Notes under the pieces: model-generated
Told to the model about the DNA's origin: nothing
What the model saw: only the letters and a program-made list of their open reading frames with translations
The model's database searches: none
Translations under genes and position numbers: made by a program
Source of the DNA: a virus
Strand: one strand, 5' to 3'
IMG/VR virus record: IMGVR_UViG_3300045988_033140
Span: 41,447 to 105,446 of that record
DNA: 64,000 nt
Shown: positions 2,202 through 64,000 of the stretch, one piece after another
Layout: every line of letters starts with the position of its first letter
Position numbering within the stretch: position 1 is the stretch's first letter

Positions 2202-3478
2202 GTTTAGTTTTTTATATGAGCGGTGGAGGAAGTAATATTCGTCTATCAAAAATTGAAATTATTTCACCACCAGAAAAAATAAATTATAAACATGGAGAAC
2301 AATTTTCTTCTGCGGGAATGACTGTGCGGGCAACATACAGTAATGGCGCTACAAGGATGGTTACTGACTTTACGTGTTTACCCAGTAGAGCGCTGAAATT
2401 TACAGATGAAAAAATCACTGTAGTTTACGCAGAAAATGGTATTACCAGGAGTGCAGAGCAGTCGATCAGCGTGGGGTCTCCCGTTGTTATCACGGACGTA
2501 AGACAGCTACCATACACTTACAATCTAAAGGGCTGCGGCAAGTATAATAATCAATATCTGATGGTCGGCAACGACGCAAGCTGGAACATATATGGGACGA
2601 TTGCTCCTGTGAGCGGGCAGGTCAACAACTTTAAAATGAATGTATCAGGAACATATCCTGCTGCGGGTATGCTTGTAACTGACACACGCATTGATATCCC
2701 TATAACAAACAAGTATGGCGGTACGCTCTATAAAAATCGGTATAAGATTGCTCTTACAGTAGCTGACTTCTTAGCAAAAAAGCAAGGATTTCAGGTCACT
2801 ACTGGTGCCAATATTCGCATGAATTGCGTCACCGAGGGCGACAATGGCTATATTTATACGGGTGGTAAAGGCGCAAATGAGGAATCCTGCATCGCCTATG
2901 TGTCCAAATCAGCGGCGGTAACTACAAACCTGGCAGTACGGAACTTCGGATCGTATGGCGAAATCATTGACATTGCGTCCTGCAAGGATTCTACTGGTGC
3001 AAGTCACTTGGCGGCGTTAACAGAAAATAACAAAATTCTGTATAAAGATTTGGGTGCCAGCGGGGAACTAAACGGGTCTTTTATTACTCAGGCCCACACT
3101 ATGGTAAAAATTGGAATGTTACCAGATAACACGGAGATGTATCGCTGTGCCATCGTCCACAAAGAATCGAATAATAATTTTTATTTATATTCTCAGAACC
3201 CAAATAGTCCGGGCAAGAACAGTTACCCCGCAATTGCGTCAGGTGACAGCACCATCTTAGGTGTTGGGGCAATTGATAACTATGCAATTGTAGTCTTTGC
3301 TGATGCCGCAGGAAATGCGAAAATTTACGTTAATGAAGATTGGGAAAATGGTAAAACATATTCATTGGGTGCCATGGCTCCTCTTGCCATGTGTAAAATT
3401 GAAAATGGTATTGGTGTGATTTGTAAAACAAATACAGCCAATACATTAGTTATTAAAGAAATTACTTTAACAACATGA
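2198..3478 (+). CDS. Structural protein with N-terminal Ig-like (Big_2-type) domain; putative tail fiber / receptor-binding protein
   Basis: Intact 426-aa ORF with GGAGG 10 nt upstream. The N-terminus (IEIISPPEKINYKHGEQFSSAGMTVRATYSNGATRMVTDF) resembles the repeats of the divergent gene at 1..1653. Confidence 0.55.
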   Translation: MSLVFYMSGGGSNIRLSKIEIISPPEKINYKHGEQFSSAGMTVRATYSNGATRMVTDFTCLPSRALKFTDEKITVVYAENGITRSAEQSISVGSPVVITDVRQLPYTYNLKGCGKYNNQYLMVGNDASWNIYGTIAPVSGQVNNFKMNVSGTYPAAGMLVTDTRIDIPITNKYGGTLYKNRYKIALTVADFLAKKQGFQVTTGANIRMNCVTEGDNGYIYTGGKGANEESCIAYVSKSAAVTTNLAVRNFGSYGEIIDIASCKDSTGASHLAALTENNKILYKDLGASGELNGSFITQAHTMVKIGMLPDNTEMYRCAIVHKESNNNFYLYSQNPNSPGKNSYPAIASGDSTILGVGAIDNYAIVVFADAAGNAKIYVNEDWENGKTYSLGAMAPLAMCKIENGIGVICKTNTANTLVIKEITLTT

Positions 3479-5418: not shown

Positions 5419-6270
5419 ATGTTCAATAATTCTAATGGCTATAGTCTAGCTGATATTGCGGCTGCTACTGGTGGTAACAACCGCAATGACGGTATGTGGG
5501 ACAACGGTGCGTGGTGGATTATTATCCTCTTCCTCTTCTGTTTCAACGGTGGTATGTGGGGTAATGGTTTCGGTCGCGGCATGGGCGCTGGATCTCCTGC
5601 ATATCAAGGAACTACCACTCGTGAAGAAATCGCTTATGGTTTTGATATGAATGGTTTACAAAATAGTATTCGTGGCGTACAGCAAGGCCTTTGCGATGGT
5701 TTCTATGCAATGAATACTGGAATGTTAAATAATTTTGCAGGTGTTAATAATGCAGTATGCTCTCTCGGTTATCAGACTGCTCAACTTGCTAACGGTTTAA
5801 CCTCTGATATTGTAGCTAATCGTTTTGCTGCACAACAGGGTGTATGCCAGGTTGAAAATGCTATCAATCAGGCTCGTTATGATAATACTATTGGTCAGAA
5901 TAGTATTGCTCGTGAGATTTCTGATTGTTGCTGCGAGAATGGTAGAGCTCTAGAGCGTGGTTTTGCTGATGTTAACTATAACATGGCTACTAATACTTGC
6001 GCTATCCAGACCTCTATGGCAAATCACACCCGTGACATTATCGACAGTCAGAATGCTGGCACTCGTGCTATCCTTGATTATCTCTGCCAGGAGAAAATCT
6101 CTGATCTCCAGAGTGAGAACCAGGCTCTCCGCCTTGCTGCATCTCAGCAAGCTCAGAACAACTATCTGGTCAGCCAGCTCGGCACTAAAGCACCTGTTCC
6201 CGCCTATGTGGTTGCAAACCCATACTGCAACTGCGGGACCGCAACTTATGGTTGCGGCTTAACTGCCTAA
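5419..6270 (+). CDS. Hypothetical 283-aa protein with one TM segment and a Gln/Cys-rich C-terminal region
   Basis: Intact ORF with AAAGGAGG RBS. No TAG despite 30 Gln codons. Confidence 0.5.
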   Translation: MFNNSNGYSLADIAAATGGNNRNDGMWDNGAWWIIILFLFCFNGGMWGNGFGRGMGAGSPAYQGTTTREEIAYGFDMNGLQNSIRGVQQGLCDGFYAMNTGMLNNFAGVNNAVCSLGYQTAQLANGLTSDIVANRFAAQQGVCQVENAINQARYDNTIGQNSIAREISDCCCENGRALERGFADVNYNMATNTCAIQTSMANHTRDIIDSQNAGTRAILDYLCQEKISDLQSENQALRLAASQQAQNNYLVSQLGTKAPVPAYVVANPYCNCGTATYGCGLTA

Positions 6271-8658: not shown

Positions 8659-9224
8659 TACTTACTTGTAGAACCGAATCCGCCTACGCGCTCGCCTGTC
8701 GCAGCATCATCATCGGTTACTCCATAAGTATGAATAATTCCTTGCCCGATCTTATCTCCACGTTTAAGCTGAATAGCAAAAGGAGAAAGATTGATAATCT
8801 GGAAGAAGATTTCACCCTCATTATCAGGGTTATCGCAATAATCGGCGTCAATGATACCGATACTATTACCAATAATCAACCAATGCTTAAGAGGGGTAGA
8901 ACTGCGGGCACTCAGTTCGAGGTACTGACCAGGCTCAAGATGACACTTCATACCGGTAGATACAAGAGGAATTTTTGCTTTTAGTTCCTTAGTAAGAGCC
9001 GCCATTTCATCAAGAGAAAGCGGGTCAATAAAGCCATAGAAGTCTTCGTGGCGTTCCTTCTCAAATAAATCATCCTGAATCTTGGTTCTTAGAAAATCAT
9101 AGGGAGGAATCACAATATCCTCCGCTACTACAAAATCATAACCTGCGGAATTGGCGGTTGCACGAGTCGGCAGGGGTAGATCAACATCCGCAAAACGGGA
9201 AACTTTTTCGAAATAACAGCTCAT
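8658..9224 (-). CDS. dut: dUTPase
   Basis: Intact 188-aa ORF with trimeric dUTPase motifs (AGYD, GIIDADY, RVGGFGSTSK). Confidence 0.85.
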   Translation of the reverse strand: MSCYFEKVSRFADVDLPLPTRATANSAGYDFVVAEDIVIPPYDFLRTKIQDDLFEKERHEDFYGFIDPLSLDEMAALTKELKAKIPLVSTGMKCHLEPGQYLELSARSSTPLKHWLIIGNSIGIIDADYCDNPDNEGEIFFQIINLSPFAIQLKRGDKIGQGIIHTYGVTDDDAATGERVGGFGSTSK

Positions 9225-9466
9225 TACTCTTCCTCCATACTGATAGGCATAACCCCTTCAGGGTCTTTCTCATTGTCGATAGTAATAGTAGCAGTCACAA
9301 GCTGATACTCTTCAATGATCTCGCCTTTTGCCTTAATATATTTAGTAGCGTACTTAAAGGAAGTTAACTCGCCAATACAATTCTTGTCAAGCCACTTCCG
9401 CAGACGAAGAGCATCTTCGACAGTAGGTACGCGATACACATTCGTTGTTTTCAAAGTATACATCAT
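9224..9466 (-). CDS. Hypothetical protein (80 aa)
   Basis: Intact ORF in a coupled string of small genes (TAATG overlap with the upstream gene). Confidence 0.4.
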   Translation of the reverse strand: MMYTLKTTNVYRVPTVEDALRLRKWLDKNCIGELTSFKYATKYIKAKGEIIEEYQLVTATITIDNEKDPEGVMPISMEEE

Positions 9467-51238: not shown

Positions 51239-52084
51239 TTAAATGATTTCTTGTAGTTTGTAGACAGTAATGTCATCACTAAAGAGGATATCATGTCCTA
51301 GCGAATCAGTTGTATAAACGTGTTTAATCAAACCACTTTCGAGTAACTCACCCTTGAAAATAGAATCTTCGCAGTGAGTGATGAAGAGGTAAATATCTGC
51401 GGCGCCCGCATCTTTCAGAGCCTGCGCTGAATGGTAGAATGTACCGCCCTTAGAACAAATATCATCAACAATGAGGATATTCTTGTCTTTTACAATCTCT
51501 CTATTGATAATATCCACACCGAGAATTTTGCCAGTTTCCCAATTTCTGCGCTTCATGCCGAAACTATAAGGGCGCTGACAATTCTCAGAATATCTCTTCA
51601 TAGCCCCTTCGTCGGGATAATACATGACAAGATTATCGTTTCCGATATCGAGTAAAGTGCGTTCAACGAACATAGTATTCGGACGATTTTCCACTCTATC
51701 AATTAGCGCAGGTGTTACATTACTATGAGCATCATAGATAACTACCTTGGTGAAATCAAGAGAGTTGATAATATCTGCAAAACTCTTGAGAGTGAATACA
51801 TCGGTTGCGTCCTTAACTCTATCCATGCGGGCGTGCGGACAGTAGGGCATATAAAGTGTGACATTTTTACAATCAGCATAGTGCTTCCGCAGGCAAATTA
51901 GCGAGAACAATTCTGCATCGTTGTTATACTTCCAGTAGATATCGACATTATAGGTCTTAAATAAGGAATCTTTAGGAGCAGTCATGTGCAGCGTTCCATC
52001 TGGAAAATGATCTTGACTAACTGGTATCCAAGTTTTATCCTCAAAACTCCAAGCTTTGTCTATTCTAGAGCGAACAAATAGCAT
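51239..52084 (-). CDS. prs: Ribose-phosphate pyrophosphokinase (PRPP synthetase)-like
   Basis: PRPP-binding loop VDDICSKGGT and PYCPHARMDR. Confidence 0.7.
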   Translation of the reverse strand: MLFVRSRIDKAWSFEDKTWIPVSQDHFPDGTLHMTAPKDSLFKTYNVDIYWKYNNDAELFSLICLRKHYADCKNVTLYMPYCPHARMDRVKDATDVFTLKSFADIINSLDFTKVVIYDAHSNVTPALIDRVENRPNTMFVERTLLDIGNDNLVMYYPDEGAMKRYSENCQRPYSFGMKRRNWETGKILGVDIINREIVKDKNILIVDDICSKGGTFYHSAQALKDAGAADIYLFITHCEDSIFKGELLESGLIKHVYTTDSLGHDILFSDDITVYKLQEII

Positions 52085-52095
52085 ATTAAGCCTCC

Positions 52096-52644
52096 TTAAA
52101 CAATTTCAATCTGGCAAGATTCCATAACTTTAAGAGCTGCTTCATGTGCTGCAACACTCGTACCAGCGCACCAGTCTTTGTGACACTTGATCTTCTGATT
52201 AGGACGAAAAGCCCGCATGATAAGAGCATTGGACACCACACAAATGTCGGTGCATACGCCGCAAATTTCAATGGTAGTATCTTCATCTACTGACATATTT
52301 ACAGACATACTTCCCCAAATGAAAGTGCCAAAGGTATCCTTATCGACGATGTAGAGATTCTTCACCTTGGAAACTCCATTAACGAGTTCAGGAATAATCT
52401 CCCATCCTTCAGTATCCTTGATACAATGCGGGACCGGTAGGAACTTTCCTTCCAATGTATCCAGATAATCTGGGCCATGGGTATCACGGGTGAAAATTAC
52501 CGTGTCATATTCATTGATGTGCGCAGCAATATTCTTCGCAGCCACTTGCGCGGCTTCAGAGCCAAGAGACCCTGTTACGAAATCGTTCTGCATATCAATT
52601 ACAATTAGAATTTTCTGCATAATATAGAAAACTCCTTTCCTCAT
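52096..52644 (-). CDS. Isochorismatase-family hydrolase, probable nicotinamidase (PncA-like)
   Basis: ILIVIDMQNDF and a catalytic Cys (CGVCTDIC). Confidence 0.6.
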   Translation of the reverse strand: MRKGVFYIMQKILIVIDMQNDFVTGSLGSEAAQVAAKNIAAHINEYDTVIFTRDTHGPDYLDTLEGKFLPVPHCIKDTEGWEIIPELVNGVSKVKNLYIVDKDTFGTFIWGSMSVNMSVDEDTTIEICGVCTDICVVSNALIMRAFRPNQKIKCHKDWCAGTSVAAHEAALKVMESCQIEIV

Positions 52645-53118: not shown

Positions 53119-53274
53119 TTAATCTTCAAAATGATTGGCAAGGTGTAAAAACATAAAAGAAAAATTTCCTGCAATAAAACCAGTAATATAAATAGCAGAA
53201 GGAGGGACTATTGTTGCTAGCATAGAGCCAACAACAATAGTAATCAGCCACAGACCGTAGAAGATAATTCTCAT
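53119..53274 (-). CDS. Tiny membrane protein (51 aa)
   Basis: Its ATG overlaps the RNA ligase TGA (ATGA). One long hydrophobic stretch. The track ORF 53126..53509 in this region is considered spurious. Confidence 0.3.
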   Translation of the reverse strand: MRIIFYGLWLITIVVGSMLATIVPPSAIYITGFIAGNFSFMFLHLANHFED

Positions 53275-54539
53275 ACTTCGTCCTGTGCCTCCTCCATATC
53301 GGGAGTAGTCTCAGTCTCTTTGATAATACCCTCAAGTACCTTGAACTCGTAAGTCTTAGACTTGAAAGCAGTGAAGGTGCGGCGGTTAACGATACGAACC
53401 ACAACGCCCTCTTTAACATGAGTTTTGCCGATAGGATCGGCCAAGTCCTCGAAATACTTGTTAATGCGGTCCTGCAAGTCCTCGGCAGTAGTGAACTTGA
53501 AGTTCTCAATCACCGGGACACGATTAAAGCCATGCTTCTCACACCAAGCAGTAATCTCGTCAGGAGTCCACTCGCGCTGACCATTCTCGGAAGTAATGCG
53601 ATAAATCCACATATGAGACTCACCGGGCTTGCAGCCGTAGGAGAAGATAGACTTCTTACCGAACAACTTTTGGAAAGCCTTATCTTTTAGCTTGGAGTTA
53701 TCGCCGATAGGCATGATGGTATCGTTCTCAGAGGGACCGTAGTACCCCACTACCTCGTAAAAGACCTCCATACCAGGATCAAGATGGGGTTTCAATGCCT
53801 CATGGTGAGACATACGAAATAGATCATTGCCGTAGTAGCCCTGAGAGTTCTCAGTTACAACGCAACGGCGCGTACCGAGAACATAAGCCTGCTTCAGACG
53901 CTTCTTCATATGGAATAGACGACGGAAGAAGCCATTAGGTAGCTCAGCAAAGGTGTTCATGGATCGCTGAGAAGTGCCATGCATCTTAAGAGTCATATTC
54001 AGCTCATCGCCGGGACGGAACTTATCCAGATTGTATGCAAGCTGCTCGGTGTCAGTGTGCATTGCAAACTCAGGATAGGTAATACCCTCTGCCTTACGAC
54101 CCTTGTAGGAAGTCTTAGGAGTGGTGCTCGGAGTCTTACGCTTAGGGATATACTTACGGCAGAACTCCTTGCCATTGATAGTATTTACCTTATTTCCGTT
54201 CTTCCAATGCTGATTGCCAAAAACCTCATAGACACGCTCAAGAGAGATGACGATGCCAGAACTCTCGTTGCCACGAAGCTTGATAGCCCGCACGTGAGAG
54301 CTATTTTCCAAGTATCCGCCTTGAGGAGTGCCATCAAGATTCTTCCGATATAGGGTGAAAGCGTCACCGAACCATCTCTCGATCTCTCCGTCCGTAGGAA
54401 GATAAAGCACTAACTCATTCTCCTTCATATTGGGTCCAACAATAACACCTTCATTAAAACAATCTGCCAACCACAGATTATCAGAATTAGGATCTTTATG
54501 GAGATTATTCAGTTTTGTCACTAGAGCGTAATAAGCCAT
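53271..54539 (-). CDS. ATP-dependent RNA ligase (Rnl2/Rnl5-like nucleotidyltransferase with KxHG motif)
   Basis: Motif I LKMHGTS matches T4 Rnl2 (KIHGTN). N-terminal OB-like domain. 422 aa. GC-richer than surroundings. Its 5' end overlaps the upstream homing-endonuclease gene by ~38 nt, so the true start may be internal. Confidence 0.55.
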   Translation of the reverse strand: MAYYALVTKLNNLHKDPNSDNLWLADCFNEGVIVGPNMKENELVLYLPTDGEIERWFGDAFTLYRKNLDGTPQGGYLENSSHVRAIKLRGNESSGIVISLERVYEVFGNQHWKNGNKVNTINGKEFCRKYIPKRKTPSTTPKTSYKGRKAEGITYPEFAMHTDTEQLAYNLDKFRPGDELNMTLKMHGTSQRSMNTFAELPNGFFRRLFHMKKRLKQAYVLGTRRCVVTENSQGYYGNDLFRMSHHEALKPHLDPGMEVFYEVVGYYGPSENDTIMPIGDNSKLKDKAFQKLFGKKSIFSYGCKPGESHMWIYRITSENGQREWTPDEITAWCEKHGFNRVPVIENFKFTTAEDLQDRINKYFEDLADPIGKTHVKEGVVVRIVNRRTFTAFKSKTYEFKVLEGIIKETETTPDMEEAQDEV

Positions 54540-55628: not shown

Positions 55629-55847
55629 TTACTTAACCCCCTTGTAGGAAATGACCTCAAGATTTTCAATCTTTGTGGAAATAGATGTCTTACCAGTATA
55701 GACTACTGCAATCTTGGTGTTTCTATCAACGCAGATGACTTTACCAGTGCGACCGTCTCTCACTCTTACGATAGTTCCATCACAAACATAGGGCATCATA
55801 TAGCTATCTCCTCTCTTGTTACATCGTAATGTCGATACCTTTTTCAT
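55629..55847 (-). CDS. Hypothetical protein (72 aa)
   Basis: Intact ORF. Confidence 0.4.
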   Translation of the reverse strand: MKKVSTLRCNKRGDSYMMPYVCDGTIVRVRDGRTGKVICVDRNTKIAVVYTGKTSISTKIENLEVISYKGVK

Positions 55848-56223
55848 GCAGGATATTGATACACTCCTGCAAATAAGCGTCGTCGTGTTCAGGGTAAATC
55901 ATATTACCCTGCTTAGCAGATTCATAAATCTCTTCATACTTAGAATCAGAAATCCATGTATCCTCACCTAATGTACTTCCTCGCCAGTTAGGATTCTTCC
56001 AAATCTTATCTGGATGATAGCCACGCTTCTCCATCTCGTCCATAATCAGATAATGATAAGCGACAAGTAGAGCAGGGTCATGTGTAAAAGCGTAGTCTAC
56101 AGTTGCGTGTTTCTTGCCCCAGCCTTTTCCTCTCAAAGCCGCACATTCTCGATGCTGACCCAAGAGGCGCTGACGGTCAAGATAGGGAATAAGTTTTTGA
56201 TGCCAGATACGAATGGTTATCAC
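55819..56223 (-). CDS. Hypothetical protein, possibly pyrimidine-dimer DNA glycosylase (T4 endonuclease V-like)
   Basis: Loose similarity of WHQKLIPYLDRQRLLGQHRECAALRGKGWGKKH to the DenV N-terminal helix. Weak call. Confidence 0.3.
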   Translation of the reverse strand: MITIRIWHQKLIPYLDRQRLLGQHRECAALRGKGWGKKHATVDYAFTHDPALLVAYHYLIMDEMEKRGYHPDKIWKNPNWRGSTLGEDTWISDSKYEEIYESAKQGNMIYPEHDDAYLQECINILHEKGIDITM

Positions 56224-56947: not shown

Positions 56948-57742
56948 TTATCTACCCATATAATAGTTTGGATCCTTCTTCAACCACCAGTCGATGTTCT
57001 CAGGGTCTTGCCAACGCTCCCAAATTGTATCAAGAGATTCAATGTCATGGAAATACATTTCTGCGCCAGGTCGGATTAACCGATCGTCATGGTAGTGGCC
57101 GCAGAGCCATACTTCCCAATCAACTTTACTTTTGATATCTTCAAGCCAAAGTTCCATACTCTTATCTACTTTTGATTGGTCAAGACCAGAGAGAAACAAA
57201 TCTCTTGGCTCCCAAGAAATGGGACAAGTATGGGTTAGGACAAAATCGTAACGCTTGCCCTCAACCCATGCGCCAATTTCATCCATTTCTTTTTTGGTTA
57301 GCTGTTCGTCCTTGAACCAACCAGTCCAGCTATCTGTATCTTCTGGACGGCCTCCAAGTCGATACCACTTATCTACGGAATATGCCCCGCCGATAACAAG
57401 GACAGAGTAGTCATGAATGTTGTAGCTCTCTCCATCAAAAAGGTATCTGATATTCGGAAATTCTGGCTCATAATAGACGCCGCCATCGACGTCTTCGTCA
57501 TACATTTGCTCCATGGAAAGGTTTTCTGGACGCTCTTCATGGTTTCCGCGAACCGCGTAAATGCGGAAGCCTGTATTATTAACATTCCTTTTATTCTTGC
57601 GGTCTGTCTTATTCAGATAGAAATTAAGCCCCATATCGCCAAGAATAATCAATGCAGTTTCATCAGGAGGATATCCAATATGACTAAGTCTTTCAAGGAC
57701 TTGACCATGAGTATCTCCTGTAACAAGCCAGTTTTTAATCAC
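56948..57742 (-). CDS. Calcineurin-like metallophosphoesterase
   Basis: GDTHG, GDMGLN and GNHEE motifs. Confidence 0.65.
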   Translation of the reverse strand: MIKNWLVTGDTHGQVLERLSHIGYPPDETALIILGDMGLNFYLNKTDRKNKRNVNNTGFRIYAVRGNHEERPENLSMEQMYDEDVDGGVYYEPEFPNIRYLFDGESYNIHDYSVLVIGGAYSVDKWYRLGGRPEDTDSWTGWFKDEQLTKKEMDEIGAWVEGKRYDFVLTHTCPISWEPRDLFLSGLDQSKVDKSMELWLEDIKSKVDWEVWLCGHYHDDRLIRPGAEMYFHDIESLDTIWERWQDPENIDWWLKKDPNYYMGR

Positions 57743-59075: not shown

Positions 59076-59242
59076 GTAAAAGGATTATAATAAACTATTT
59101 CGTTGCAAGCAGGACAAACTGTCAAAAGTCGACCGGTGCCAAGCCCACGGGTAACTTCATTAAACCTACAATGAAAAACGCACTTGCATTTTTTGCATTT
59201 AACTCGATAGCCAATATGTCTCTGCTTTCCAATAATAATCAT
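59060..59242 (-). CDS. Small zinc-ribbon protein (60 aa)
   Basis: CKKCKC..CPAC pairs. Confidence 0.4.
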   Translation of the reverse strand: MIIIGKQRHIGYRVKCKKCKCVFHCRFNEVTRGLGTGRLLTVCPACNEIVYYNPFTWRKI

Positions 59243-59547
59243 TATCTAATCTCCCTCCATCCATTCTTCTCAATGATTGCTCTCATATTTTGAACGCCGA
59301 CAGGATTCATGCTATGAATATGAACAGGATAATTGCGACCAGTTTTTTCCAACCAATTGAGCAAGTTAATGTAATCGCCACCATTTTTAGCATATTCACC
59401 AGCATCGTGGTCAATATCAATAAGTTCAAAAGGGTCTTCCATGAATTCAGCCTTTGTAATAAGAAGCATGGCTTCATGTGTACTTCTGGCCCAAGCCCAT
59501 TCAGCACCAAATGGAGCAATGCGTACATCATCAATCCACAGTTTCAT
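59242..59547 (-). CDS. Hypothetical protein (101 aa)
   Basis: Intact ORF. Confidence 0.4.
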   Translation of the reverse strand: MKLWIDDVRIAPFGAEWAWARSTHEAMLLITKAEFMEDPFELIDIDHDAGEYAKNGGDYINLLNWLEKTGRNYPVHIHSMNPVGVQNMRAIIEKNGWREIR

Positions 59548-59562
59548 TATATACCTTCTTTC

Positions 59563-60141
59563 TTAATTAAATAATTCTGGAGCAACTCGTGGGCTATAGT
59601 TACGAGTTTCAATCAGGTGATTATGATTGTTATGTGCGTTAAGAATATCCTTTCCCTTGGCATTGCCAATAGCAATCATATAACCGAGATGATCTTTAGC
59701 TTCTCTTCTCTTAATTCGACAAGTTTTAAGCATACGGCCTAGTTTGACGAAAATGATGTTTCCAGGAGAGGTAAACTCAAACTTGTGGAGCAAATCTTCT
59801 TGCAATTTATCTTGCTCAGACTGTACAGTTGCATAATATTTCGTGATAGCCGGAATCTTTTCAGCAGCTTTGCCAAAGATTTCTACAGCCTGCCGCAGTT
59901 CCTCATAAGCAGCCTCTGCTTCTTCTTTTGTTAAAGTAGGAATGGGGTCTTCGCTGGCTCCCTTACCATCAAGAGTAAGATACTGCAATTCCTGCAGTTT
60001 ATCTTTTAAACTATTCTTTGCATACTTCTGAGCTGCCTCTAAGGTATTGAACCTACCAGCCGCATAAATATTATCAGTCCAATGATTTTCCTTGGCATAA
60101 GCATAATATTTATTTTCTTTAATCCACAGAATAACAAACAT
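59563..60141 (-). CDS. Hypothetical protein (192 aa)
   Basis: Intact ORF. Confidence 0.4.
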   Translation of the reverse strand: MFVILWIKENKYYAYAKENHWTDNIYAAGRFNTLEAAQKYAKNSLKDKLQELQYLTLDGKGASEDPIPTLTKEEAEAAYEELRQAVEIFGKAAEKIPAITKYYATVQSEQDKLQEDLLHKFEFTSPGNIIFVKLGRMLKTCRIKRREAKDHLGYMIAIGNAKGKDILNAHNNHNHLIETRNYSPRVAPELFN

Positions 60142-60176
60142 TTATCGCAAACCCTCTTTCTTAACTTTCTATATAT

Positions 60177-60205
60177 ATTATATTATAATTTTTCAAAAAA
60201 ATAAA
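60177..60205 (-). promoter_or_regulatory. Sigma70-like promoter (TTTATT-17-TATAAT) fused to the terminator hairpin at 60204..60231
   Basis: Seen on the minus strand. Confidence 0.4.
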
Positions 60206-60235
60206 GGGGAGCTATATAGATAGCTCCCCTTATTC

Positions 60236-60442
60236 TTATACCGAGGGTACAGCTTTCGTAGAATCGCTGTTCACATCAGCGTTAGTGGCTGTAGTAACAG
60301 ACCAGTTATCTCTCGGATACGCTCCTGTAGTACATGGATTACAAGTAATCTTGTCACGCCAAAAATCTTCACAGGAACATTGTGACACCCAAGGCGCATT
60401 TACTTTATGACACCGAGGGCAAAGCCAACCTTCCATCATCAT
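60236..60442 (-). CDS. Small Cys-rich protein (68 aa)
   Basis: CPRC..CSC..CNPC. Confidence 0.4.
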   Translation of the reverse strand: MMMEGWLCPRCHKVNAPWVSQCSCEDFWRDKITCNPCTTGAYPRDNWSVTTATNADVNSDSTKAVPSV

Positions 60443-60454
60443 TGGTTTACCTCC

Positions 60455-61414
60455 TTAAAAATCCCAGCTATTACCATTGATAATAGCTTTCGCATACTTG
60501 TTATTTGCCATATCCTTAGCTTCAGACAGCTCGTTCTTAAGAATAGACAAAGTATCTTCGTCCATGCCCTTAAGTAGTGAGATAGACAGAACCTCGGACA
60601 GATTGTTGATTACCGTTTCGAGTTTTGCAATTCTATCAATAGTACGATAAGAAAACAAGCACTCAATGCCAGCCTTATCGGTAATCTCTCTGAAACGATG
60701 GCAGAAAGATACTAGACTCTTGTTGTTATCTGCCATAGCCATCTCAATCTTTTCAGAGTAGTCGATGTTCACCATAGCAAAACGATCAAGACTTGCTCTA
60801 TCCAAGCAATAGCGACCAGTGTAGTTATTATCTGCACCAGTACCAACCGTATTACCAGCAGCGATGACTCTAAAGTTAGGGTTTGCACTAACTTTGCCGT
60901 TGGGGAAGTCGAAGTATCTATTCGCGATGGCCGCGTTCAAAATAATCAGGGTCTCAGGGATAGACGCGTCCATCTCGTCCAAGAAGAACAGACCACCCTT
61001 CGTAAAAGCTTTATAAAACTGGGTTTCCTGATAATTGCCGTTGGCATCAATGAAGCCAGTTAGCTTGTACTCCTGCGTAACGGCATTGGTGAAATAAAAA
61101 TCCAGACCCAGAGATTCCGCGACCTGCTGACAAATGACATTCTTGCCAGTGCCCGCTTTGCCGGTCAGATAAACGGGGATATCCAGATTGACGATATTGA
61201 GTACTTCGTCAAACTTCTCATGCGTAGTGCCGCAAATCTTATGTGTCGCAGTCGGCATCCGCACTTCATGGATCTCCGGCAGGAAACCATAAGTCTCGTG
61301 AATTTTCTCATCAATCTGAGGATACACTTTCGCCAGGATTTCCTCCACATTCACGTCGACGACCGCATCAGTCACCGCCTTCATCATCGCTTCGAGCATC
61401 TTATCTCTATTCAT
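60455..61414 (-). CDS. MoxR-like AAA+ ATPase (AAA_5 / CbbQ-type)
   Basis: Walker A GKAGTGKN, Walker B FFLDEMD and sensor region. Start set at the ATG 9 nt after GGAGG. Confidence 0.7.
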   Translation of the reverse strand: MNRDKMLEAMMKAVTDAVVDVNVEEILAKVYPQIDEKIHETYGFLPEIHEVRMPTATHKICGTTHEKFDEVLNIVNLDIPVYLTGKAGTGKNVICQQVAESLGLDFYFTNAVTQEYKLTGFIDANGNYQETQFYKAFTKGGLFFLDEMDASIPETLIILNAAIANRYFDFPNGKVSANPNFRVIAAGNTVGTGADNNYTGRYCLDRASLDRFAMVNIDYSEKIEMAMADNNKSLVSFCHRFREITDKAGIECLFSYRTIDRIAKLETVINNLSEVLSISLLKGMDEDTLSILKNELSEAKDMANNKYAKAIINGNSWDF

Positions 61415-61415
61415 A

Positions 61416-62303
61416 TCAGCAGACCTCCATATATTTAAGAATTTCTTCAATATCATTTTCATGTTCAGTAATCCACGCACGGTTAATCACATAGGTATTT
61501 TTATCCTTGATAAGAGTCTTCAAAACTTCAAGCTCAGGCGGACGGCCATAATCATGAGAAAAATTTTCTACCATACCAGGACAAGTTTCAAGGTACTTAA
61601 AGCCAATTCGTCTAAACATTGCAGGGTGAATCATCGGGAAGCAGATTTTCTGCAAATTAAAGCGTTCGCCATAGCCTTTAATCTTCACAGTCGGGAAAAT
61701 AATCTGCTTAGTTCCTTTCGTAGGCATAAAACCAACCGACAATTCAGTTTGCACACCGGATAACTCAATGAGATTGATGGCGGATACAAGCGCCGAGCCC
61801 GCAGATGCCAGAACATCACTTTCTACGCCACAGCTACCGCCCGTAGCATAGATAATAGAGATAGTCTTTCTCTTCTTATGGAGTTTTTCCAGTGTAATCA
61901 TAGATTCCGGCAGTCCTTTAAGAGCATTGGGTACATTTGGAACAAATCCTACCACTCTATTTTGGACTATGGGCTTAGGAATTGAATTGTAGATTTTACT
62001 TGTCAGTTTCTTATTTTTAGCTAAGCTGCTCTTGATATTTTTAACCGGATCTTCATAGCCATGAATCAAGAGAGATTGAGCTTCTTCATAAGAAGAAGTG
62101 CCACTCCACTCTTCATTTCCACGTTCTTGAGACGAATCTTCGTTACGCATGAAGCTATTGTTTTCACGATTATTGATAGTATTCAGTAAACTGTAAATAC
62201 TACCAAAGTCTTCTCGATATAGAGAATAATCAGAAGCAGATTGTACTGGTGGTTCAAATGAAGATGTAAACAAACTTGGGAATGGCATTTCAAATGGATT
62301 CAT
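61416..62303 (-). CDS. Hypothetical protein (295 aa) encoded between the MoxR-like ATPase and the TROVE/vWA protein
   Basis: Intact ORF. No confident domain. Position suggests a partner of the AAA/vWA pair. Confidence 0.4.
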   Translation of the reverse strand: MNPFEMPFPSLFTSSFEPPVQSASDYSLYREDFGSIYSLLNTINNRENNSFMRNEDSSQERGNEEWSGTSSYEEAQSLLIHGYEDPVKNIKSSLAKNKKLTSKIYNSIPKPIVQNRVVGFVPNVPNALKGLPESMITLEKLHKKRKTISIIYATGGSCGVESDVLASAGSALVSAINLIELSGVQTELSVGFMPTKGTKQIIFPTVKIKGYGERFNLQKICFPMIHPAMFRRIGFKYLETCPGMVENFSHDYGRPPELEVLKTLIKDKNTYVINRAWITEHENDIEEILKYMEVC

Positions 62304-62336
62304 CTATGTAACTTCCTTTCCTTACCTTATATATTT

Positions 62337-62365
62337 ATTATATCATATATTAAATTATTTTTCAA
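62337..62365 (-). promoter_or_regulatory. Sigma70-like promoter (TTGAAA-17-TATAAT) followed by the terminator hairpin at 62368..62406
   Basis: The -10 is at 62337-42 and the -35 at 62360-65, minus strand. Confidence 0.5.
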
Positions 62366-62422
62366 TAAATAGAAAAGACGGGGAAATAGCAATTTTCTGG
62401 CCATTTCCCCGTTTGAAAGGGT

Positions 62423-63913
62423 TTAGTGGATCTGAGCGTAACGCTCGCTATCCAGCTTCTCAAGAATCAGATCGAGTTCGTCCTTGCCGCTGAGAATCTG
62501 CTGAATCATAACAGGGCTAAAGCCACTTACATAGCTAAAGCCGTCACCGATTGCGGGAATGTTGTTATTGCGGGCGTTCAAGTTCCAGAAGATGCAGCTA
62601 GGCATCTTGTAACCATAGCGTGCCCACTTAGCCTTCATACTCTCAAAGAGAGTCTGGATGGCATCGCTGTGCATGCCATATCCCCAGCTACCCCGATCAG
62701 TAGAGTTACTGATAACACACTTGTCAAACTCCATATCAGAGAAGATATAGATGCGAGTAGGCATATCCTCAGGCTTTACACTTTGCTTCATTGCGGTGCT
62801 GAGCAGCATATCGAAGACAGCTTCGATATTAGTGTTCATACCCCAATCTGCACCAATGCAACGGCACAACTTATCGGTAATGTCTGCCCCCTCGAACTTC
62901 ACCAACTCAGGATTACCAGAGAAGGTAATGAAGTGGTTGGCAAAAGGACCGTGCGCCTTATCTGCGATGTACGCACCCATAGAAACCGCAGCCTCCATAG
63001 GAACACCGGTCATAGAGCCAGAAACATCGACAACAGCAATGCCATTCTCGATATTATCACCGTAGTAGTTAGGAAGGTTCTCCCAATACTTCTGAAGCAT
63101 CAGACGATCAGGATCGCCCAATCCCTTACGATTGGCTTCAAAGGCACGATGTGCAATGTCATGAGGATAGAGAGCACTGGCGTTAACCTTAGTCTCAGTG
63201 TCCTTAGCAAAAGCCTCGTACTTAGCCTTAATCATATCGCGGCGAGCAAACGCATTGCGATAAATTACGCCGGCGCGAGAAGGAATCTTATCGAACTCAA
63301 TCTCGTCCCAACGATTCTCAGACATGAGGCGCTCGACAATGCGAATGCGCTCACGCAGAGTAGAGAGAGTCTTACGGTACTGCTTAGCAGTCATGCCGAA
63401 ATGATTGCGGGTAATCACCGCCAAATGGCGAGATTCCTTAGAGCTGGTATTCTCAGACTTCAGCCACTTAGCAAGCAGAGAAGGAGTCTTGCAAGAAACA
63501 TCCAAAGCCAGCTGATGGCGCATCAAATTGAAAGCGTCCTTCTCCAGAGGAGTGCCAACGAAGATATACAGGTCATCCCAGCGACCGTACTCAGGCACAA
63601 ACTGGAGATTACGACGCATAGCCTCAGTTTCGTAAGAAGCGAGCCAATTGGTTACGACGCGGAAGAAACGACGCTCGCCCTGGCCGCCGCGCACATCACG
63701 CAAATAGAACAGGCACTTCAAAGCATGAGCTTCATCCTCGTCAAAAGCAGCCTTGAACAAAGTGATGCAATCTGCGTCAGAGCGAGTGCGATATGCTCCA
63801 CCAAGCGCGAACAAATCCATAAGACCATTCAAAGTAGACTTATGGGTAATGGCACCATTCTCAGTCAAGGTAAAGTTGGTATCTTGCTTCATAGCGTTCA
63901 TAAAAGTATTCAT
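62423..63913 (-). CDS. TROVE-like + vWA (MIDAS) protein, Ro60/Rsr-like (DUF2828-type); GC-richer than average
   Basis: Intact 496-aa ORF. N-terminal block LFALGGAYRTRSDADCI..LFYLRDVRGGQGERRFF. C-terminal vWA MIDAS VVDVSGSMTG. Confidence 0.5.
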   Translation of the reverse strand: MNTFMNAMKQDTNFTLTENGAITHKSTLNGLMDLFALGGAYRTRSDADCITLFKAAFDEDEAHALKCLFYLRDVRGGQGERRFFRVVTNWLASYETEAMRRNLQFVPEYGRWDDLYIFVGTPLEKDAFNLMRHQLALDVSCKTPSLLAKWLKSENTSSKESRHLAVITRNHFGMTAKQYRKTLSTLRERIRIVERLMSENRWDEIEFDKIPSRAGVIYRNAFARRDMIKAKYEAFAKDTETKVNASALYPHDIAHRAFEANRKGLGDPDRLMLQKYWENLPNYYGDNIENGIAVVDVSGSMTGVPMEAAVSMGAYIADKAHGPFANHFITFSGNPELVKFEGADITDKLCRCIGADWGMNTNIEAVFDMLLSTAMKQSVKPEDMPTRIYIFSDMEFDKCVISNSTDRGSWGYGMHSDAIQTLFESMKAKWARYGYKMPSCIFWNLNARNNNIPAIGDGFSYVSGFSPVMIQQILSGKDELDLILEKLDSERYAQIH

Positions 63914-64000
63914 CGTATCAATCTCCTTTTGATTTTTAGTTACTCACTTGGACAAGGGAGATTAGATTCTAGACCTTATCTTTTCGGTTCCGTTGGGTTT

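What the first reader, a model, noticed from the sequence alone, without database searches (positions are those of the whole stretch)
60455..63913. MoxR-AAA + unknown + Ro60-like TROVE/vWA gene trio
A MoxR-type AAA+ ATPase (60455..61414), a 295-aa protein of unknown fold (61416..62303) and a 496-aa protein with a TROVE-like N-terminal region and a vWA MIDAS motif DVSGSM (62423..63913) form a co-directional cluster. The terminal gene has its own promoter and terminator (62337..62406). MoxR-vWA pairs are chaperone-like or conflict-system modules. Ro60/Rsr-like proteins bind misfolded RNAs and Y RNAs, and cellular rsr loci typically carry a Y-RNA gene and an RNA ligase. The noncoding flanks (62304..62422 and the truncated 63914..64000) are the obvious places for such an RNA. 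The cluster is adjacent to the RNA-repair genes, which suggests an RNA quality-control or counter-defence system.
Basis: inference. Interest (0 to 1): 0.7.

Follow-up and report, generated by a model that had tools for sequence, protein, structure and literature searches.

The report
Phage Ro60-like protein with Y-like RNA
The 496-residue protein is a diverged phage copy of the RNA-surveillance protein Ro60, encoded beside a previously uncatalogued family of small tRNA-like RNAs that probably bind it, while the AAA+ ATPase and the middle gene form a separate ATPase-plus-adaptor pair.

Summary
All three ORFs are real and lie on the minus strand. They form two units, not a trio.

(1) 63913..62423 (Pfam DUF2828+DUF7788) folds as Ro60: a helical-repeat ring plus a vWA domain with a complete MIDAS. 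The six best PDB matches are all Ro60. No TROVE profile hit.

(2) A terminator and a strong promoter (62406..62337) separate it from 62303..61416 (DUF7192) and 61414..60455 (AAA_5). DUF7192 looks like a degenerate vWA domain, closest to NorD and Midasin MIDAS domains. This pair recurs without the Ro60-like gene in Staphylococcus, Listeria, Clostridium and Mycobacterium phages. The three genes are adjacent only in close relatives.

A 138-nt RNA ends at window 63969; the rest lies beyond 64000. Its layout is that of bacterial YrlA Y RNAs, with strong covariation.

Its family has short and long forms. It sits on the gene's strand next to DUF2828 genes in very different phages and is not recognised by Rfam.

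The short forms resemble Dictyostelium Class I RNAs. That link is a hypothesis only.

Neighbouring genes (cREC, RlaP-like, phosphoesterase, RNA ligase) point to RNA repair or quality control.

The parts
63969..64000 (-). Last 32 nt of a 138-nt YrlA-like / permuted-tRNA-like small RNA, cut by the window end. The full RNA is L007 9808-9945, which would be window 64106..63969.
   Evidence: CM R1 hit at window 63969-64000, model positions 104-135, truncated 5'. Full element and covariation.
62423..63913 (-). Ro60-like protein (496 aa): helical-repeat ring (Pfam DUF2828) plus a vWA domain (DUF7788) with MIDAS residues D296, S298, S300, T361 and D393.
   Evidence: Pfam and PHROG 850. AF2 model with pLDDT 89.4 and pTM 0.89. 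Foldseek top 6 hits are all Ro60, E 3e-8 to 7e-6, TM 0.47-0.60. MIDAS residues invariant in 96 sequences.
62375..62406 (-). Intrinsic-terminator-like hairpin (GGGGAAATGGC / GCTATTTCCCC) followed by a T-rich tail. It ends the Ro60-like transcription unit.
   Evidence: Read directly from the sequence. The loop has 9 nt, so the consensus scanner did not list it.
62337..62365 (-). Sigma-70-type promoter TTGAAA-17-TATAAT with an extended -10 TG, in front of the DUF7192-AAA operon.
   Evidence: Best promoter match in 60000-64000, 11 of 12.
61416..62303 (-). DUF7192 protein (295 aa): a degenerate vWA-like domain without DxSxS, probably the adaptor of the ATPase.
60455..61414 (-). MoxR/CobS/Midasin-class AAA_5 ATPase (319 aa). 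Walker A is GKAGTGKN; Walker B is FFLDEMD.
   Evidence: Pfam AAA_5. PHROG 249. PDB sequence hits to Midasin AAA (7.6e-17) and CobS (8e-4). Motif alignment.
60236..60442 (-). 68-aa Cys-rich ORF (CxxC...CxC), the last gene of the same inferred transcription unit. Function unknown.
   Evidence: ORF list. Called as a gene on the parent contig. No Pfam hit.
60204..60231 (.). Strong bidirectional hairpin terminator that closes the DUF7192-AAA unit.
   Evidence: Terminator scan: 12-bp stem with a T-run on both strands.
59242..59547 (-). Context gene: cREC (cyclic-phosphate-processing receiver domain).
   Evidence: Pfam PF20274 2.3e-16. Role as described in PMC7824862.
57735..58538 (-). Context gene: RlaP-like Pol-beta nucleotidyltransferase (RNA-ligase-associated family).
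   Evidence: Pfam PF10127, 22.7 bits, just under the cut-off of 23.
56948..57742 (-). Context gene: calcineurin-like metallophosphoesterase.
   Evidence: Pfam PF00149 4.5e-8.
53271..54539 (-). Context gene: RNA ligase.
   Evidence: Pfam PF09414 4.8e-10.

Best explanation
There are two separate modules.

Module A is a phage Ro60-type ribonucleoprotein. The 496-aa protein is a diverged Ro60: an RNA-binding ring plus a vWA/MIDAS domain. It appears to be co-transcribed with two tRNA genes and a 138-nt small RNA that lie just upstream, at the end of the phage's tRNA cluster.

That RNA has a terminal stem (AAGACCU/AGGUCUU) and a conserved single-stranded ACAGCAA next to the 5' strand of the stem. 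It also has an embedded tRNA-like domain in permuted order: variable hairpin, T arm, closed acceptor-like stem, D arm. This is the architecture of bacterial YrlA Y RNAs.

Inferred, by analogy with Rsr-YrlA: the stem plus ACAGCAA is the protein's docking site, and the tRNA-like part recruits tRNA-handling or RNA-degrading enzymes. The particle would then bind damaged or misfolded tRNA or rRNA during infection and pass it to decay, or to the phage's own repair enzymes encoded downstream (cREC, RlaP-like nucleotidyltransferase, phosphoesterase, RNA ligase).

Module B is an independent operon with its own promoter and terminator. It encodes a MoxR/CobS/Midasin-class AAA_5 ATPase and a degenerate vWA-like adaptor (DUF7192). 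It is built like NorQ-NorD, CbbQ-CbbO or CobS-CobT, which remodel a client protein using ATP. Its client is unknown.

Shown: the ORFs, the folds, the RNA structure and its genomic linkage. Inferred: binding, co-transcription and the biological role.
For: Protein. The AF2 model is confident (pLDDT 89.4). Its six best PDB matches are all Ro60, aligned over the full length (E 3e-8 to 7e-6). The next matches are vWA domains only, at E >= 0.027. MIDAS residues and many Arg/Lys in the ring are invariant across 96 homologues. Homologues in mycobacteriophages are annotated 'Ro-like RNA binding protein', and PHROG 850 is named 'RNA-binding protein'.

RNA structure. With 8 sequences, 11 of 29 pairs change on both sides and 96% of cells pair, against 33-52% when partners are slid. 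With 21 sequences, 28 of 29 pairs change on both sides, and 96% pair against 39-47%. RNAalifold on its own recovers the terminal stem, T arm, acceptor-like stem and D arm: 22 pairs, 21 with compensatory changes.

RNA order. It matches YrlA as described in PMC4201824. Rfam YrlA is the best family for the Tourach element, full length but below threshold (23.1 bits, gathering score 69).

Linkage.
- All 74 CM hits at E <= 0.01 are on the gene's strand.
- In the whole Tourach genome the only significant hit (54 bits) lies 104 nt downstream of its Ro-like gene. That phage's 11 tRNAs lie 22 kb away with no hit.
- A pattern scan of IMG/VR gave 120 stretches. 48 of them hold a DUF2828 homologue (26-98% identity), and all 48 are on the same strand. 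Among stretches with at least 3 kb on both sides, 13 of 23 hold one.
- A crude grammar scan found 211 elements on the gene strand and 31 on the other strand in 80 loci.
- The T5 tRNA region (25 tRNAs, no DUF2828) has no hit above 20 bits.

Module B. The adjacent AAA_5-DUF7192 pair recurs in four other phage lineages. Fusion proteins exist. DUF7192 has a vWA-like fold. Walker A Lys and Walker B DE are conserved.

Context genes.
Against: - No experiment shows that the RNA is made or that the protein binds it.
- There is no sequence-level TROVE match. Identity to Ro60 in the structural alignment is only 12%, and TM-scores are 0.47-0.60.
- The RNAs sit mostly inside tRNA clusters, so part of the linkage could reflect shared placement in tRNA arrays. 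Tourach and T5 argue against that, but they are single genomes.
- The related loci share ancestry, so counts of loci are not independent events.
- The YrlA motif GNCGAAN0-1G is absent.
- Some genomes carry both modules (this phage, Tourach; for Listeria Pecentumvirus only across related phages), so a functional connection between A and B is not excluded.
Confidence: 0.65

Rival explanations
1. One reading: the three genes form one system. The MoxR-type ATPase, with or without the middle protein, loads, remodels or recycles the Ro60-like protein through its vWA/MIDAS domain.
For: The genes are adjacent and co-directional here and in the closest relatives. Two more public contigs probably carry both genes at about 71-73% identity of the Ro60-like protein, judged only by shared contig lengths of 10929 and 16234. 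Both modules co-occur in Tourach and, across related Listeria Pecentumvirus phages, in LP-125 and A511/LP-124. The Ro60-like vWA keeps a complete MIDAS, the kind of site that MoxR-class ATPase systems use.
Against: A terminator and a promoter lie between them. No AAA or DUF7192 lies within 5 kb in 73 of 80 homologous IMG/VR loci, nor in Tsamsa, PK-3, wV8, A511, CPX or ValKK3. About 236 Staphylococcus phage records carry the pair, while only 42 Staphylococcus records, of other phage types, carry DUF2828. At least 340 Escherichia, Salmonella, Vibrio, Campylobacter and Bacillus phage records have DUF2828, yet those groups do not appear among the AAA matches. The ATPase already has its own vWA-like neighbour.
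Confidence: 0.15
2. The AAGAC...ACAGCAA elements are not partners of the protein. They are processing or punctuation signals of phage tRNA operons, decayed tRNA genes, or small mobile repeats with terminal inverted repeats.
For: Most copies lie between tRNA genes. The copy next to this gene resembles tRNA-Tyr: it has a GUA 'anticodon' hairpin, an encoded ACCA, and 72% identity to the Tsamsa tRNA-Tyr region. One relative (L012) carries a tRNA-Leu fused to the 3' half of the element. Elements occur several times per genome.
Against: In Tourach the three elements sit directly after the Ro-like gene, 22 kb from the tRNA cluster. T5's large tRNA cluster has none. The single-stranded ACAGCAA is conserved from mycobacteriophages to coliphages while the stems covary, which points to a binding site rather than an inverted repeat. 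Strand bias is 211 to 31. U33 of the 'anticodon' loop is not conserved.
Confidence: 0.12
3. The AAA_5-DUF7192 pair is a virion-assembly or cofactor-insertion chaperone, as proposed for MoxR-vWA pairs in an archaeal virus and in jumbo phages. It would be unrelated to RNA.
For: PMC7824862 cites a MoxR-vWA system required for tail assembly in Acidianus two-tailed virus and proposes a virion-assembly role for such pairs in jumbo phages. The closest structural relatives of DUF7192 (NorD, Midasin MIDAS) act on protein clients.
Against: In every phage examined the pair lies among early or nucleotide- and RNA-metabolism genes (RNA ligase, nucleotidyltransferase, phosphoesterase, PhoH), not among structural genes. 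That is weak evidence either way.
Confidence: 0.2

Closest known systems
Ro60 / Rsr (TROVE + vWA) with its Y RNAs: bacterial Rsr-YrlA/YrlB, as in the Salmonella rsr-yrlBA-rtcBA locus and the Deinococcus Rsr-Y RNA-PNPase complex
   Same: Predicted fold over the full length, with an intact MIDAS. One or more small RNA genes lie within a few hundred nt on the same strand. The long RNA has the YrlA order: 5' motif, V, T arm, closed acceptor-like stem, D arm, closing stem. Short forms without the tRNA-like part recall YrlB. RNA ligase and end-healing genes lie nearby.
   Different: No TROVE profile match and about 12% identity. The RNA motif is ACAGCAA, not GNCGAAN0-1G. Rfam YrlA scores 23 bits against a gathering score of 69, and gives no match for this phage's own copy. 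The genes are embedded in phage tRNA arrays. This phage's copy has a 7-bp acceptor stem with an encoded ACCA in the loop.
MoxR-class AAA_5 ATPase with a vWA partner: NorQ-NorD, CbbQ-CbbO, CobS-CobT, Midasin AAA ring with its MIDAS domain
   Same: An AAA_5 ATPase whose best solved relatives by sequence are Midasin and CobS. The adjacent gene has a predicted fold that best matches NorD vWA and Midasin MIDAS. The two-gene adjacency is conserved, and occasional fusions exist.
   Different: The partner has no DxSxS MIDAS; its strand reads ISIIYATGGSCG. Walker A ends in GKN in three lineages. No client is known. The PHROG label 'porphyrin biosynthesis' seems to rest on CobS similarity only.
Dictyostelid Class I RNAs (Rfam RF01414; Kjellin et al. 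2021, PMC7919456)
   Same: The short phage forms (58-82 nt) share the layout: 5' (A)AG, a short terminal stem whose sequence varies while pairing is kept, an unpaired ...UACAGCAA directly after the 5' strand, a variable middle, and a 3' end C-U/A-G. Compare Tourach GGTCACTAACAGCAATC...GTGACCAG with A. subglobosum GGUCGUCUUACAGCAAUC...GAAGACCUG. RF01414 is among the non-tRNA Rfam families matched by three phage elements, with matching boundaries.
   Different: Scores are 18-21 bits against a gathering score of 41.5. There is no DUSE promoter context. Class I RNAs are reported as unique to Dictyostelia, and their direct binder is an RRM protein. Whether Dictyostelium has a DUF2828 protein could not be tested here.
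Permuted tRNA genes and two-piece tmRNA
   Same: The T arm and 3' acceptor strand with ACCA lie upstream of the 5' acceptor strand and D arm. There are weak Rfam hits to permuted tmRNA (15 bits).
   Different: There is no tag reading frame. U33 is not conserved. The ends are closed by a conserved stem with the ACAGCAA motif. ARAGORN calls neither a tRNA nor a tmRNA there.

Membership tests
Ro60 / TROVE-vWA proteins | Ring of helical repeats followed by a vWA domain, seen as full-length structural similarity to solved Ro60 | tested here: met
   Foldseek against the PDB: 1yvr, 2i91, 9nfa, 1yvp and 9nen are ranks 1-6, E 3e-8 to 7e-6, TM 0.47-0.60, about 565-580 aligned columns. The model has pLDDT 89.4.
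Ro60 / TROVE-vWA proteins | Match to the Pfam TROVE profile (PF05731), or sequence similarity to solved Ro60 | tested here: not met
   No TROVE hit at E <= 1. phmmer and a 96-sequence profile against PDB sequences do not reach Ro60.
Ro60 / TROVE-vWA proteins | Complete MIDAS motif (DxSxS...T...D) in the vWA domain | tested here: met
   D296, S298, S300, T361 and D393 are invariant in 96 sequences.
Ro60 / TROVE-vWA proteins | Binds a Y RNA on its outer surface and misfolded RNA ends in the central hole | not testable with these tools
   Only genomic linkage to a Y-like RNA gene is shown.
YrlA Y RNAs (Rfam RF02553) | Order: 5' protein-binding motif, V, T arm, closed acceptor-like stem, D arm, with the ends paired | tested here: met
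   The named structure is supported by covariation, and RNAalifold recovers it. The order follows PMC4201824.
YrlA Y RNAs (Rfam RF02553) | Reaches the Rfam gathering score | tested here: not met
   There is no YrlA match at E <= 10 for this phage's element. The Tourach element scores 23.1 bits against 69. No gathering-level hit appears in the Tsamsa or PK-3 loci.
YrlA Y RNAs (Rfam RF02553) | Conserved GNCGAAN0-1G near the 5' end | tested here: not met
   The conserved motif is (U/A)ACAGCAA instead.
YrlA Y RNAs (Rfam RF02553) | Encoded within about 4 kb of the Ro60 gene on the same strand | tested here: met
   It ends 55 nt upstream of the start codon here. In IMG/VR, 48 of 48 are on the same strand, many within 70-700 nt. 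In Tourach it lies 104 nt downstream.
MoxR-class AAA_5 + vWA two-gene modules | AAA_5 ATPase with Walker A Lys and Walker B Asp-Glu | tested here: met
   Pfam AAA_5. GKAGTGKN and FFLDEMD are conserved across five phage lineages.
MoxR-class AAA_5 + vWA two-gene modules | Adjacent partner with a vWA fold | tested here: inconclusive
MoxR-class AAA_5 + vWA two-gene modules | Functional MIDAS (DxSxS) in the partner | tested here: not met
   The strand at residues 147-153 reads ISIIYAT, followed by GGSCG. No invariant Asp or Ser is at those positions in 74 sequences.
Dictyostelid Class I RNAs (Rfam RF01414) | Short terminal stem, an 11-nt CCUUACAGCAA motif after the 5' strand, about 60 nt, conserved ends | tested here: inconclusive
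   The layout and 7 to 9 of the 11 motif positions are shared. CM scores are 20.8, 20.1 and 17.8 bits against a gathering score of 41.5.
Known anti-phage defence systems (PADLOC) | Match to any PADLOC model | tested here: not met
   No hit for any of the three proteins.

The most novel reading that the evidence does not exclude
DUF2828-type Ro60-like proteins, which occur in phages, giant viruses and plants, have a dedicated class of RNA partners. These are defined by a terminal stem followed by unpaired (U)ACAGCAA.

The abundant Class I RNAs of dictyostelid amoebae have been orphans for about 20 years and are reported as unique to that group. On this reading they belong to the same class. They would be Y-RNA-like partners of a DUF2828 protein, and the uncharacterised pull-down protein DDB_G0281243 is the obvious candidate to check.

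The long phage forms add a permuted tRNA-like domain. In this phage that domain has a 7-bp acceptor stem and an encoded CCA, so RNase P could open it into a nicked molecule that might be aminoacylated.
Probability: 0.25. Interest if true: 0.85.

Novelty: new variant of a known kind. Interest (0 to 1): 0.68.

Why it matters
Ro60 and its Y RNAs are a conserved but still poorly understood RNA-surveillance system. Bacterial Y RNAs were found only by searching next to genes annotated as TROVE (PMC4201824).

DUF2828 proteins are not flagged as TROVE by Pfam. Homologues occur in at least 704 sequenced phage records, including Felix O1-like coliphages, Listeria A511, Campylobacter phages, KVP40-like vibriophages, large Bacillus phages and cluster L mycobacteriophages.

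I found no Rfam family that captures their companion RNAs and no paper in the searchable library that describes them. The library is incomplete, so earlier work may exist.

If the protein and RNA do form a particle, three things follow:
- Many well-studied phages carry an unrecognised small-RNA class inside their tRNA clusters.
- Genetically tractable systems become available for asking what a Ro60 particle does during infection, for example protecting or clearing tRNAs cut by host anticodon nucleases.
- The shared stem plus ACAGCAA signature gives a directly testable lead on the function of Dictyostelium Class I RNAs.

Separately, the AAA_5-DUF7192 pair is routinely mislabelled 'porphyrin biosynthesis'. 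It is better described as a MoxR-type ATPase with a degenerate vWA adaptor.

Tried and rejected
- Megablast of 60200-64000 against GenBank phages: no match.
- Rfam at gathering level over the whole window, and ARAGORN: nothing in the window.
- Rfam at E <= 10 over 60000-64000: only noise, and no RNA in 62304-62422.
- PADLOC and NCBIfam: uninformative.
- Sequence searches against the PDB with the single protein and with a 96-sequence profile did not reach Ro60. Only the fold comparison did.
- I first read the sequence upstream of the gene as a possible permuted tRNA-Tyr gene or a two-piece tmRNA. I rejected this. U33 is not conserved, there is no tag frame, and the same conserved ends and ACAGCAA occur in many copies that have no tRNA-Tyr features.
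- Several CM hits were discarded because they span the T arm of one tRNA and the D arm of the next (L001 4490, L074 2436, L033 3181, L079 780).
- A multi-locus Rfam search at E <= 1 listed neither YrlA nor Class I. Those matches appear only in short targeted searches.
- The afdb50 fold library, which could have shown eukaryotic relatives with organism names, was not available.
- Burroughs and Aravind 2016 (NAR) and the Sim et al. 2020 review could not be read.
- Literature searches for DUF2828, DUF7192 and DDB_G0281243 gave nothing functional.
- A conserved tRNA-Cys(GCA) directly upstream of the gene in about 40 of 80 loci was noted but not pursued.

Full report
**1. Observation**

The three ORFs exist at the stated coordinates, all on the minus strand.
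- 63913..62423 encodes 496 aa, with VDVSGSM at residues 295-301.
- 62303..61416 encodes 295 aa.
- 61414..60455 encodes 319 aa from the ATG. The public gene call on the parent contig uses that start.

Pfam gives DUF2828 (6.5e-27) plus DUF7788 (5.1e-46) and a weak VWA_2 hit for the first protein. It gives DUF7192 (1.7e-33) for the second and AAA_5 (2.9e-11) for the third. PHROGs gives family 850 'RNA-binding protein' (7e-129), family 1909 (unknown function) and family 249 'porphyrin biosynthesis'. PADLOC has no match. There is no TROVE profile match.

The window is part of a 144.5-kb metagenomic contig (L007). Window position equals 73914 minus L007 position.

**2. Transcription signals**

On the minus strand the stop codon of the 496-aa gene is followed by a hairpin, GGGGAAATGGC...GCTATTTCCCC, and a T-rich tail (62406..62375). 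Next comes TTGAAA-17-TATAAT with an extended -10 TG (62365..62337). This is the best promoter match in 60000..64000.

A 12-bp bidirectional terminator lies at 60231..60204, after the AAA gene and a 68-aa Cys-rich ORF.

On L007 a promoter-like site at 9198-9226 precedes tRNA-Leu(CAA), tRNA-Cys(GCA), the small RNA described in section 6, and the 496-aa gene.

So the 'trio' reads as two transcription units. This rests on consensus motifs and not on expression data.

**3. The 496-aa protein is Ro60-like**

An AlphaFold2 model built on 96 homologues is confident (pLDDT 89.4, pTM 0.89). Foldseek against the PDB ranks six Ro60 entries first: 1yvr, two chains of 2i91, 9nfa, 1yvp and 9nen. Their E-values run from 3e-8 to 7e-6, TM-scores from 0.47 to 0.60, and the alignments cover the full length. 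The next matches are vWA domains only, at E >= 0.027.

The MIDAS residues D296, S298, S300, T361 and D393 are invariant, as are many basic residues in the N-terminal part. Sequence methods do not reach Ro60.

The family is widespread. tblastn finds it in 704 phage records: Escherichia 120, Mycobacterium 95, Salmonella 77, Vibrio 56, Listeria 54, Staphylococcus 42, Campylobacter 40, Enterococcus 36, Bacillus 28 and Aeromonas 23. Some are annotated 'Ro-like RNA binding protein'.

Iyer et al. [quoted passage not shown] The protein assignment is therefore not new.

**4. The middle protein and the ATPase are a pair of their own**

The DUF7192 model (pLDDT 76.9) matches vWA/MIDAS domains.
- The top five Foldseek hits are all NorD in NorQ-NorD complexes (E 1e-3 to 7e-3), though TM-scores are low.

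DUF7192 has no DxSxS motif. The ATPase's best solved relatives by sequence are the Midasin AAA ring (7.6e-17) and CobS (8e-4). Walker A (GxxGxGK followed by N or T) and Walker B (DE) are conserved.

Adjacent AAA_5-DUF7192 pairs, confirmed by Pfam, occur in:
- Staphylococcus phage phiIPLA-RODI (gp033, gp032);
- Listeria phage LP-125 (gp092, gp091);
- Clostridium phage CS266P3 (gp043, gp044);
- Mycobacterium phage Tourach (gp140, gp139), 32 kb from its Ro-like gene.

Some database proteins fuse the two domains.

Conversely, none of Tsamsa, PK-3, wV8, A511, CPX or ValKK3 has the pair next to its DUF2828 gene. Among 80 IMG/VR loci only the closest relatives do.

The juxtaposition here is therefore specific to one clade.

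**5. The Ro60-like gene sits at tRNA clusters**

On L007 there are 11 tRNA genes in the 10 kb upstream, outside the window. The gene directly follows or precedes the tRNA array in several unrelated phages:
- Tsamsa and PK-3;
- wV8, where 22 tRNAs start 166 nt downstream;
- A511;
- CPX, where all five tRNAs lie just upstream.

It does not in ValKK3 or Tourach.

**6. A structured RNA next to the gene**

Between tRNA-Cys and the start codon lies this sequence (L007 9808-9945):

AAGACCUUAACAGCAAUAAAAAAUGGACUGUAAAUCCGUCGCUUAUGCUACGCAGGUUCGAAUCCUGCCCUCCCCACCACUAUAUGGCGGAGGUAGGGAAGUGGUUAAACCCAACGGAACCGAAAAGAUAAGGUCUAG

It contains, in order:
- a terminal stem;
- an unpaired ACAGCAA;
- a hairpin;
- a T arm;
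- a closed 7-bp acceptor-like stem with ACCA in its loop;
- UA;
- a D arm;
- a stem that closes the tRNA-like domain.

ARAGORN calls no tRNA or tmRNA there. Only its last 32 nt (63969..64000) are inside the window.

Copies 91-93% identical occur in phages whose Ro60-like proteins are only 54-59% identical. Copies 71% identical carry compensatory changes in every helix.

Covariation is strong:
- On 8 sequences, 11 of 29 pairs change on both sides. 96% of cells pair, against 33-52% when partners are slid.
- On 21 sequences aligned to the model, 28 of 29 pairs change on both sides. 96% of cells pair, against 39-47%.
- RNAalifold independently predicts the terminal stem, T arm, acceptor-like stem and D arm. 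That is 22 pairs, 21 of them with compensatory changes.

One caveat applies. The 21-sequence alignment was fitted to the model, and the sequences are related to each other.

**7. The RNA family and its link to the gene**

Covariance models R1 and R2 find a family with these features:
- the ends (A/U)AG(A/G)C...G(U/C)CU(U/A)G;
- ACAGCAA directly after the 5' strand of the terminal stem;
- 'long' forms of 104-140 nt with the tRNA-like domain;
- 'short' forms of 58-82 nt without it.

Members include Tsamsa (L001 4245-4368, and a short form at 5854-5915 about 90 nt before the gene), PK-3 (two long forms) and wV8 (one long and three short forms just after the gene). L007 carries a second long form at 3077-3188.

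Evidence that the RNAs go with the gene:
- All 74 R2 hits at E <= 0.01 are on the gene's strand.
- In the complete Tourach genome the only significant hit (54 bits, E 5e-9) lies 104 nt after the Ro-like gene. It is flanked by two short forms and then a terminator. That phage's 11 tRNAs lie 22 kb away and give no hit.
- T5's tRNA region has 25 tRNAs and several annotated stable RNAs. No T5-like phage appeared among the listed DUF2828 matches. Nothing there scores above 20 bits.
- A pattern scan of IMG/VR gave 120 stretches of arbitrary length. 48 of them contain a DUF2828 homologue (26-98% identity), and all 48 are on the same strand. Among stretches with at least 3 kb on both sides, 13 of 23 contain one. 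Twelve RNAs lie 70-480 nt upstream of the gene and seven lie 200-700 nt downstream.
- A crude grammar scan gives 211 elements on the gene strand against 31 on the other strand in 80 loci. Counts are at background level in T5, in the AAA loci and in the window itself.

**8. Relation to known RNAs**

The order of elements is that of YrlA (Chen et al. 2014, PMC4201824). That paper reported YrlA-like RNAs next to TROVE-annotated genes in 254 bacteria and 22 phages.

Rfam's YrlA model is the best family for the Tourach element. The match is full length but far below threshold (23.1 bits against 69). It gives no match for this phage's own copy. The YrlA motif GNCGAAN0-1G is replaced by ACAGCAA. No gathering-level Rfam family covers the elements in the loci tested.

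I therefore treat this as a diverged, uncatalogued relative or analogue of YrlA and YrlB, paired with the DUF2828 branch of Ro60-like proteins.

**9. An unexpected resemblance**

The second-best Rfam family for the Tourach element is Dictyostelium Class I RNA (RF01414). The same family matches two short forms in wV8. Scores are 20.8, 20.1 and 17.8 bits against a gathering score of 41.5, and the match boundaries coincide with the elements.

Class I RNAs have these features (PMC7919456):
- 42-65 nt long;
- begin with (AA)G;
- a 6-bp terminal stem whose sequence varies while pairing is kept;
- an unpaired 11-nt motif, CCUUACAGCAA, right after the 5' strand;
- end in CUGU.

They are reported to be unique to Dictyostelia.

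Published sequences look much like the Tourach short forms. Compare A. subglobosum GGUCGUCUUACAGCAAUC...GAAGACCUG with Tourach GGTCACTAACAGCAATC...GTGACCAG.

DUF2828 also occurs in plants and in mimivirus-like sequences. The same paper's outgroup table lists one Arabidopsis candidate with a CM score of 40. One of the four proteins pulled down with a Class I RNA, DDB_G0281243, has no known function.

I could not test whether Dictyostelium has a DUF2828 protein, because the fold library that carries organism names was unavailable. This remains a hypothesis, at roughly 25% probability.

**10. Context and mechanism**

Downstream on the same strand lie:
- cREC (PF20274, 2.3e-16);
- an RlaP-like nucleotidyltransferase (22.7 bits, cut-off 23);
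- a calcineurin-like phosphoesterase;
- an RNA ligase;
- NAD-related genes, namely an isochorismatase-family protein and a PRPP-synthetase-like protein.

Iyer et al. describe cRec, RlaP and RNA ligases as phage RNA-repair components. Tourach carries the same repertoire: PNK, RNA ligase, phosphoesterase, nucleotidyltransferase, NAD salvage genes and the AAA-DUF7192 pair.

The most likely mechanism, inferred by analogy with Rsr-YrlA, is a phage Ro60-like particle docked on the stem-ACAGCAA RNA. It would capture damaged or misfolded tRNA or rRNA and route it to decay or to the phage repair enzymes.

The AAA_5-DUF7192 pair is a separate ATP-driven remodelling module with an unknown client. A link between the two modules is not excluded but has little support.

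**11. Verdict**

It is wrong about a conserved three-gene system and about the 62304..62422 spacer.

The protein is a new member of a known kind. The RNA family and its pairing with DUF2828 proteins look like a new variant of the Ro60-Y RNA theme. I could not exclude prior description in papers outside the searchable library.

Noticed in passing
L007 9720-9806 (outside the window, 195 nt upstream of the gene start); L009-L088: A tRNA-Cys(GCA) on the gene's strand is the nearest upstream tRNA in about 40 of 80 DUF2828 loci, although the other tRNAs of the arrays differ. In this phage it is 87 nt long with a long variable arm, which is unusual for tRNA-Cys, and it carries an encoded CCA.
   Followed up: partly
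L089 6713-6778, 6879-6936, 7275-7342 (wV8); L213 42067-42118, 42263-42323 (Tourach); L001 5854-5915 (Tsamsa): Short (58-82 nt) stem-ACAGCAA RNAs without a tRNA-like domain resemble Dictyostelium Class I RNAs in layout, motif and ends. Rfam RF01414 matches them at 18-21 bits, below its gathering score of 41.5.
   Followed up: partly
L012 4803-4945: In one close relative, a tRNA-Leu(CAA) is fused at its ACCA end to the 3' half of the Y-like RNA, and tRNA-Cys is missing. This looks like a deletion between the two tRNA-like T-arm/ACCA segments.
   Followed up: no
L031, L032, L036, L039, L040, L067 and other related loci: ARAGORN tRNAs with a CUA anticodon (labelled tRNA-Pyl, i.e. amber suppressors) and one with UUA in the tRNA arrays of related phages. 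This hints at stop-codon recoding in this group of phages.
   Followed up: no
L215 8285-8645, 9809-9980, 10839-11084, 11878-11950, 18849-19567 (phage T5): T5's tRNA region carries annotated 'stable RNAs with unknown functions', some called tRNA-like. They do not match the model of the Y-like family (best 20 bits), so they are a different kind of RNA.
   Followed up: partly
window 51239-52644 and 55819-56223: A PRPP-synthetase-like protein and an isochorismatase-family (nicotinamidase-like) protein lie side by side, suggesting NAD salvage. Tourach likewise encodes a ribose-phosphate pyrophosphokinase and a nicotinamide phosphoribosyltransferase. A pyrimidine-dimer DNA glycosylase (PF03013) also lies in the region.
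   Followed up: no
window 60455-61414 and homologues: This ATPase family is annotated 'porphyrin biosynthesis' or 'CobS' in PHROGs and in many phage records. The match to the CobS equivalog is 22 bits against a cut-off of 559, so the label is not supported.
   Followed up: yes
window 62337-62365; L007 9198-9226; window 63914-63935: The signals are strong sigma-70-type promoters with an extended -10, and the gene has an AAGGAG ribosome-binding site. A homologue from a related contig is labelled 'MAG: Muribaculaceae', but these signals are more typical of Firmicutes than of Bacteroidota, from general knowledge. The closest cultured-phage homologues are from Bacillus phages.
   Followed up: no
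L007 3077-3188 and 579-719: The same phage genome carries a second long Y-like RNA (73.5 bits) about 6.8 kb upstream of the gene. It may also carry a further, atypical stem-ACAGCAA element.
   Followed up: partly
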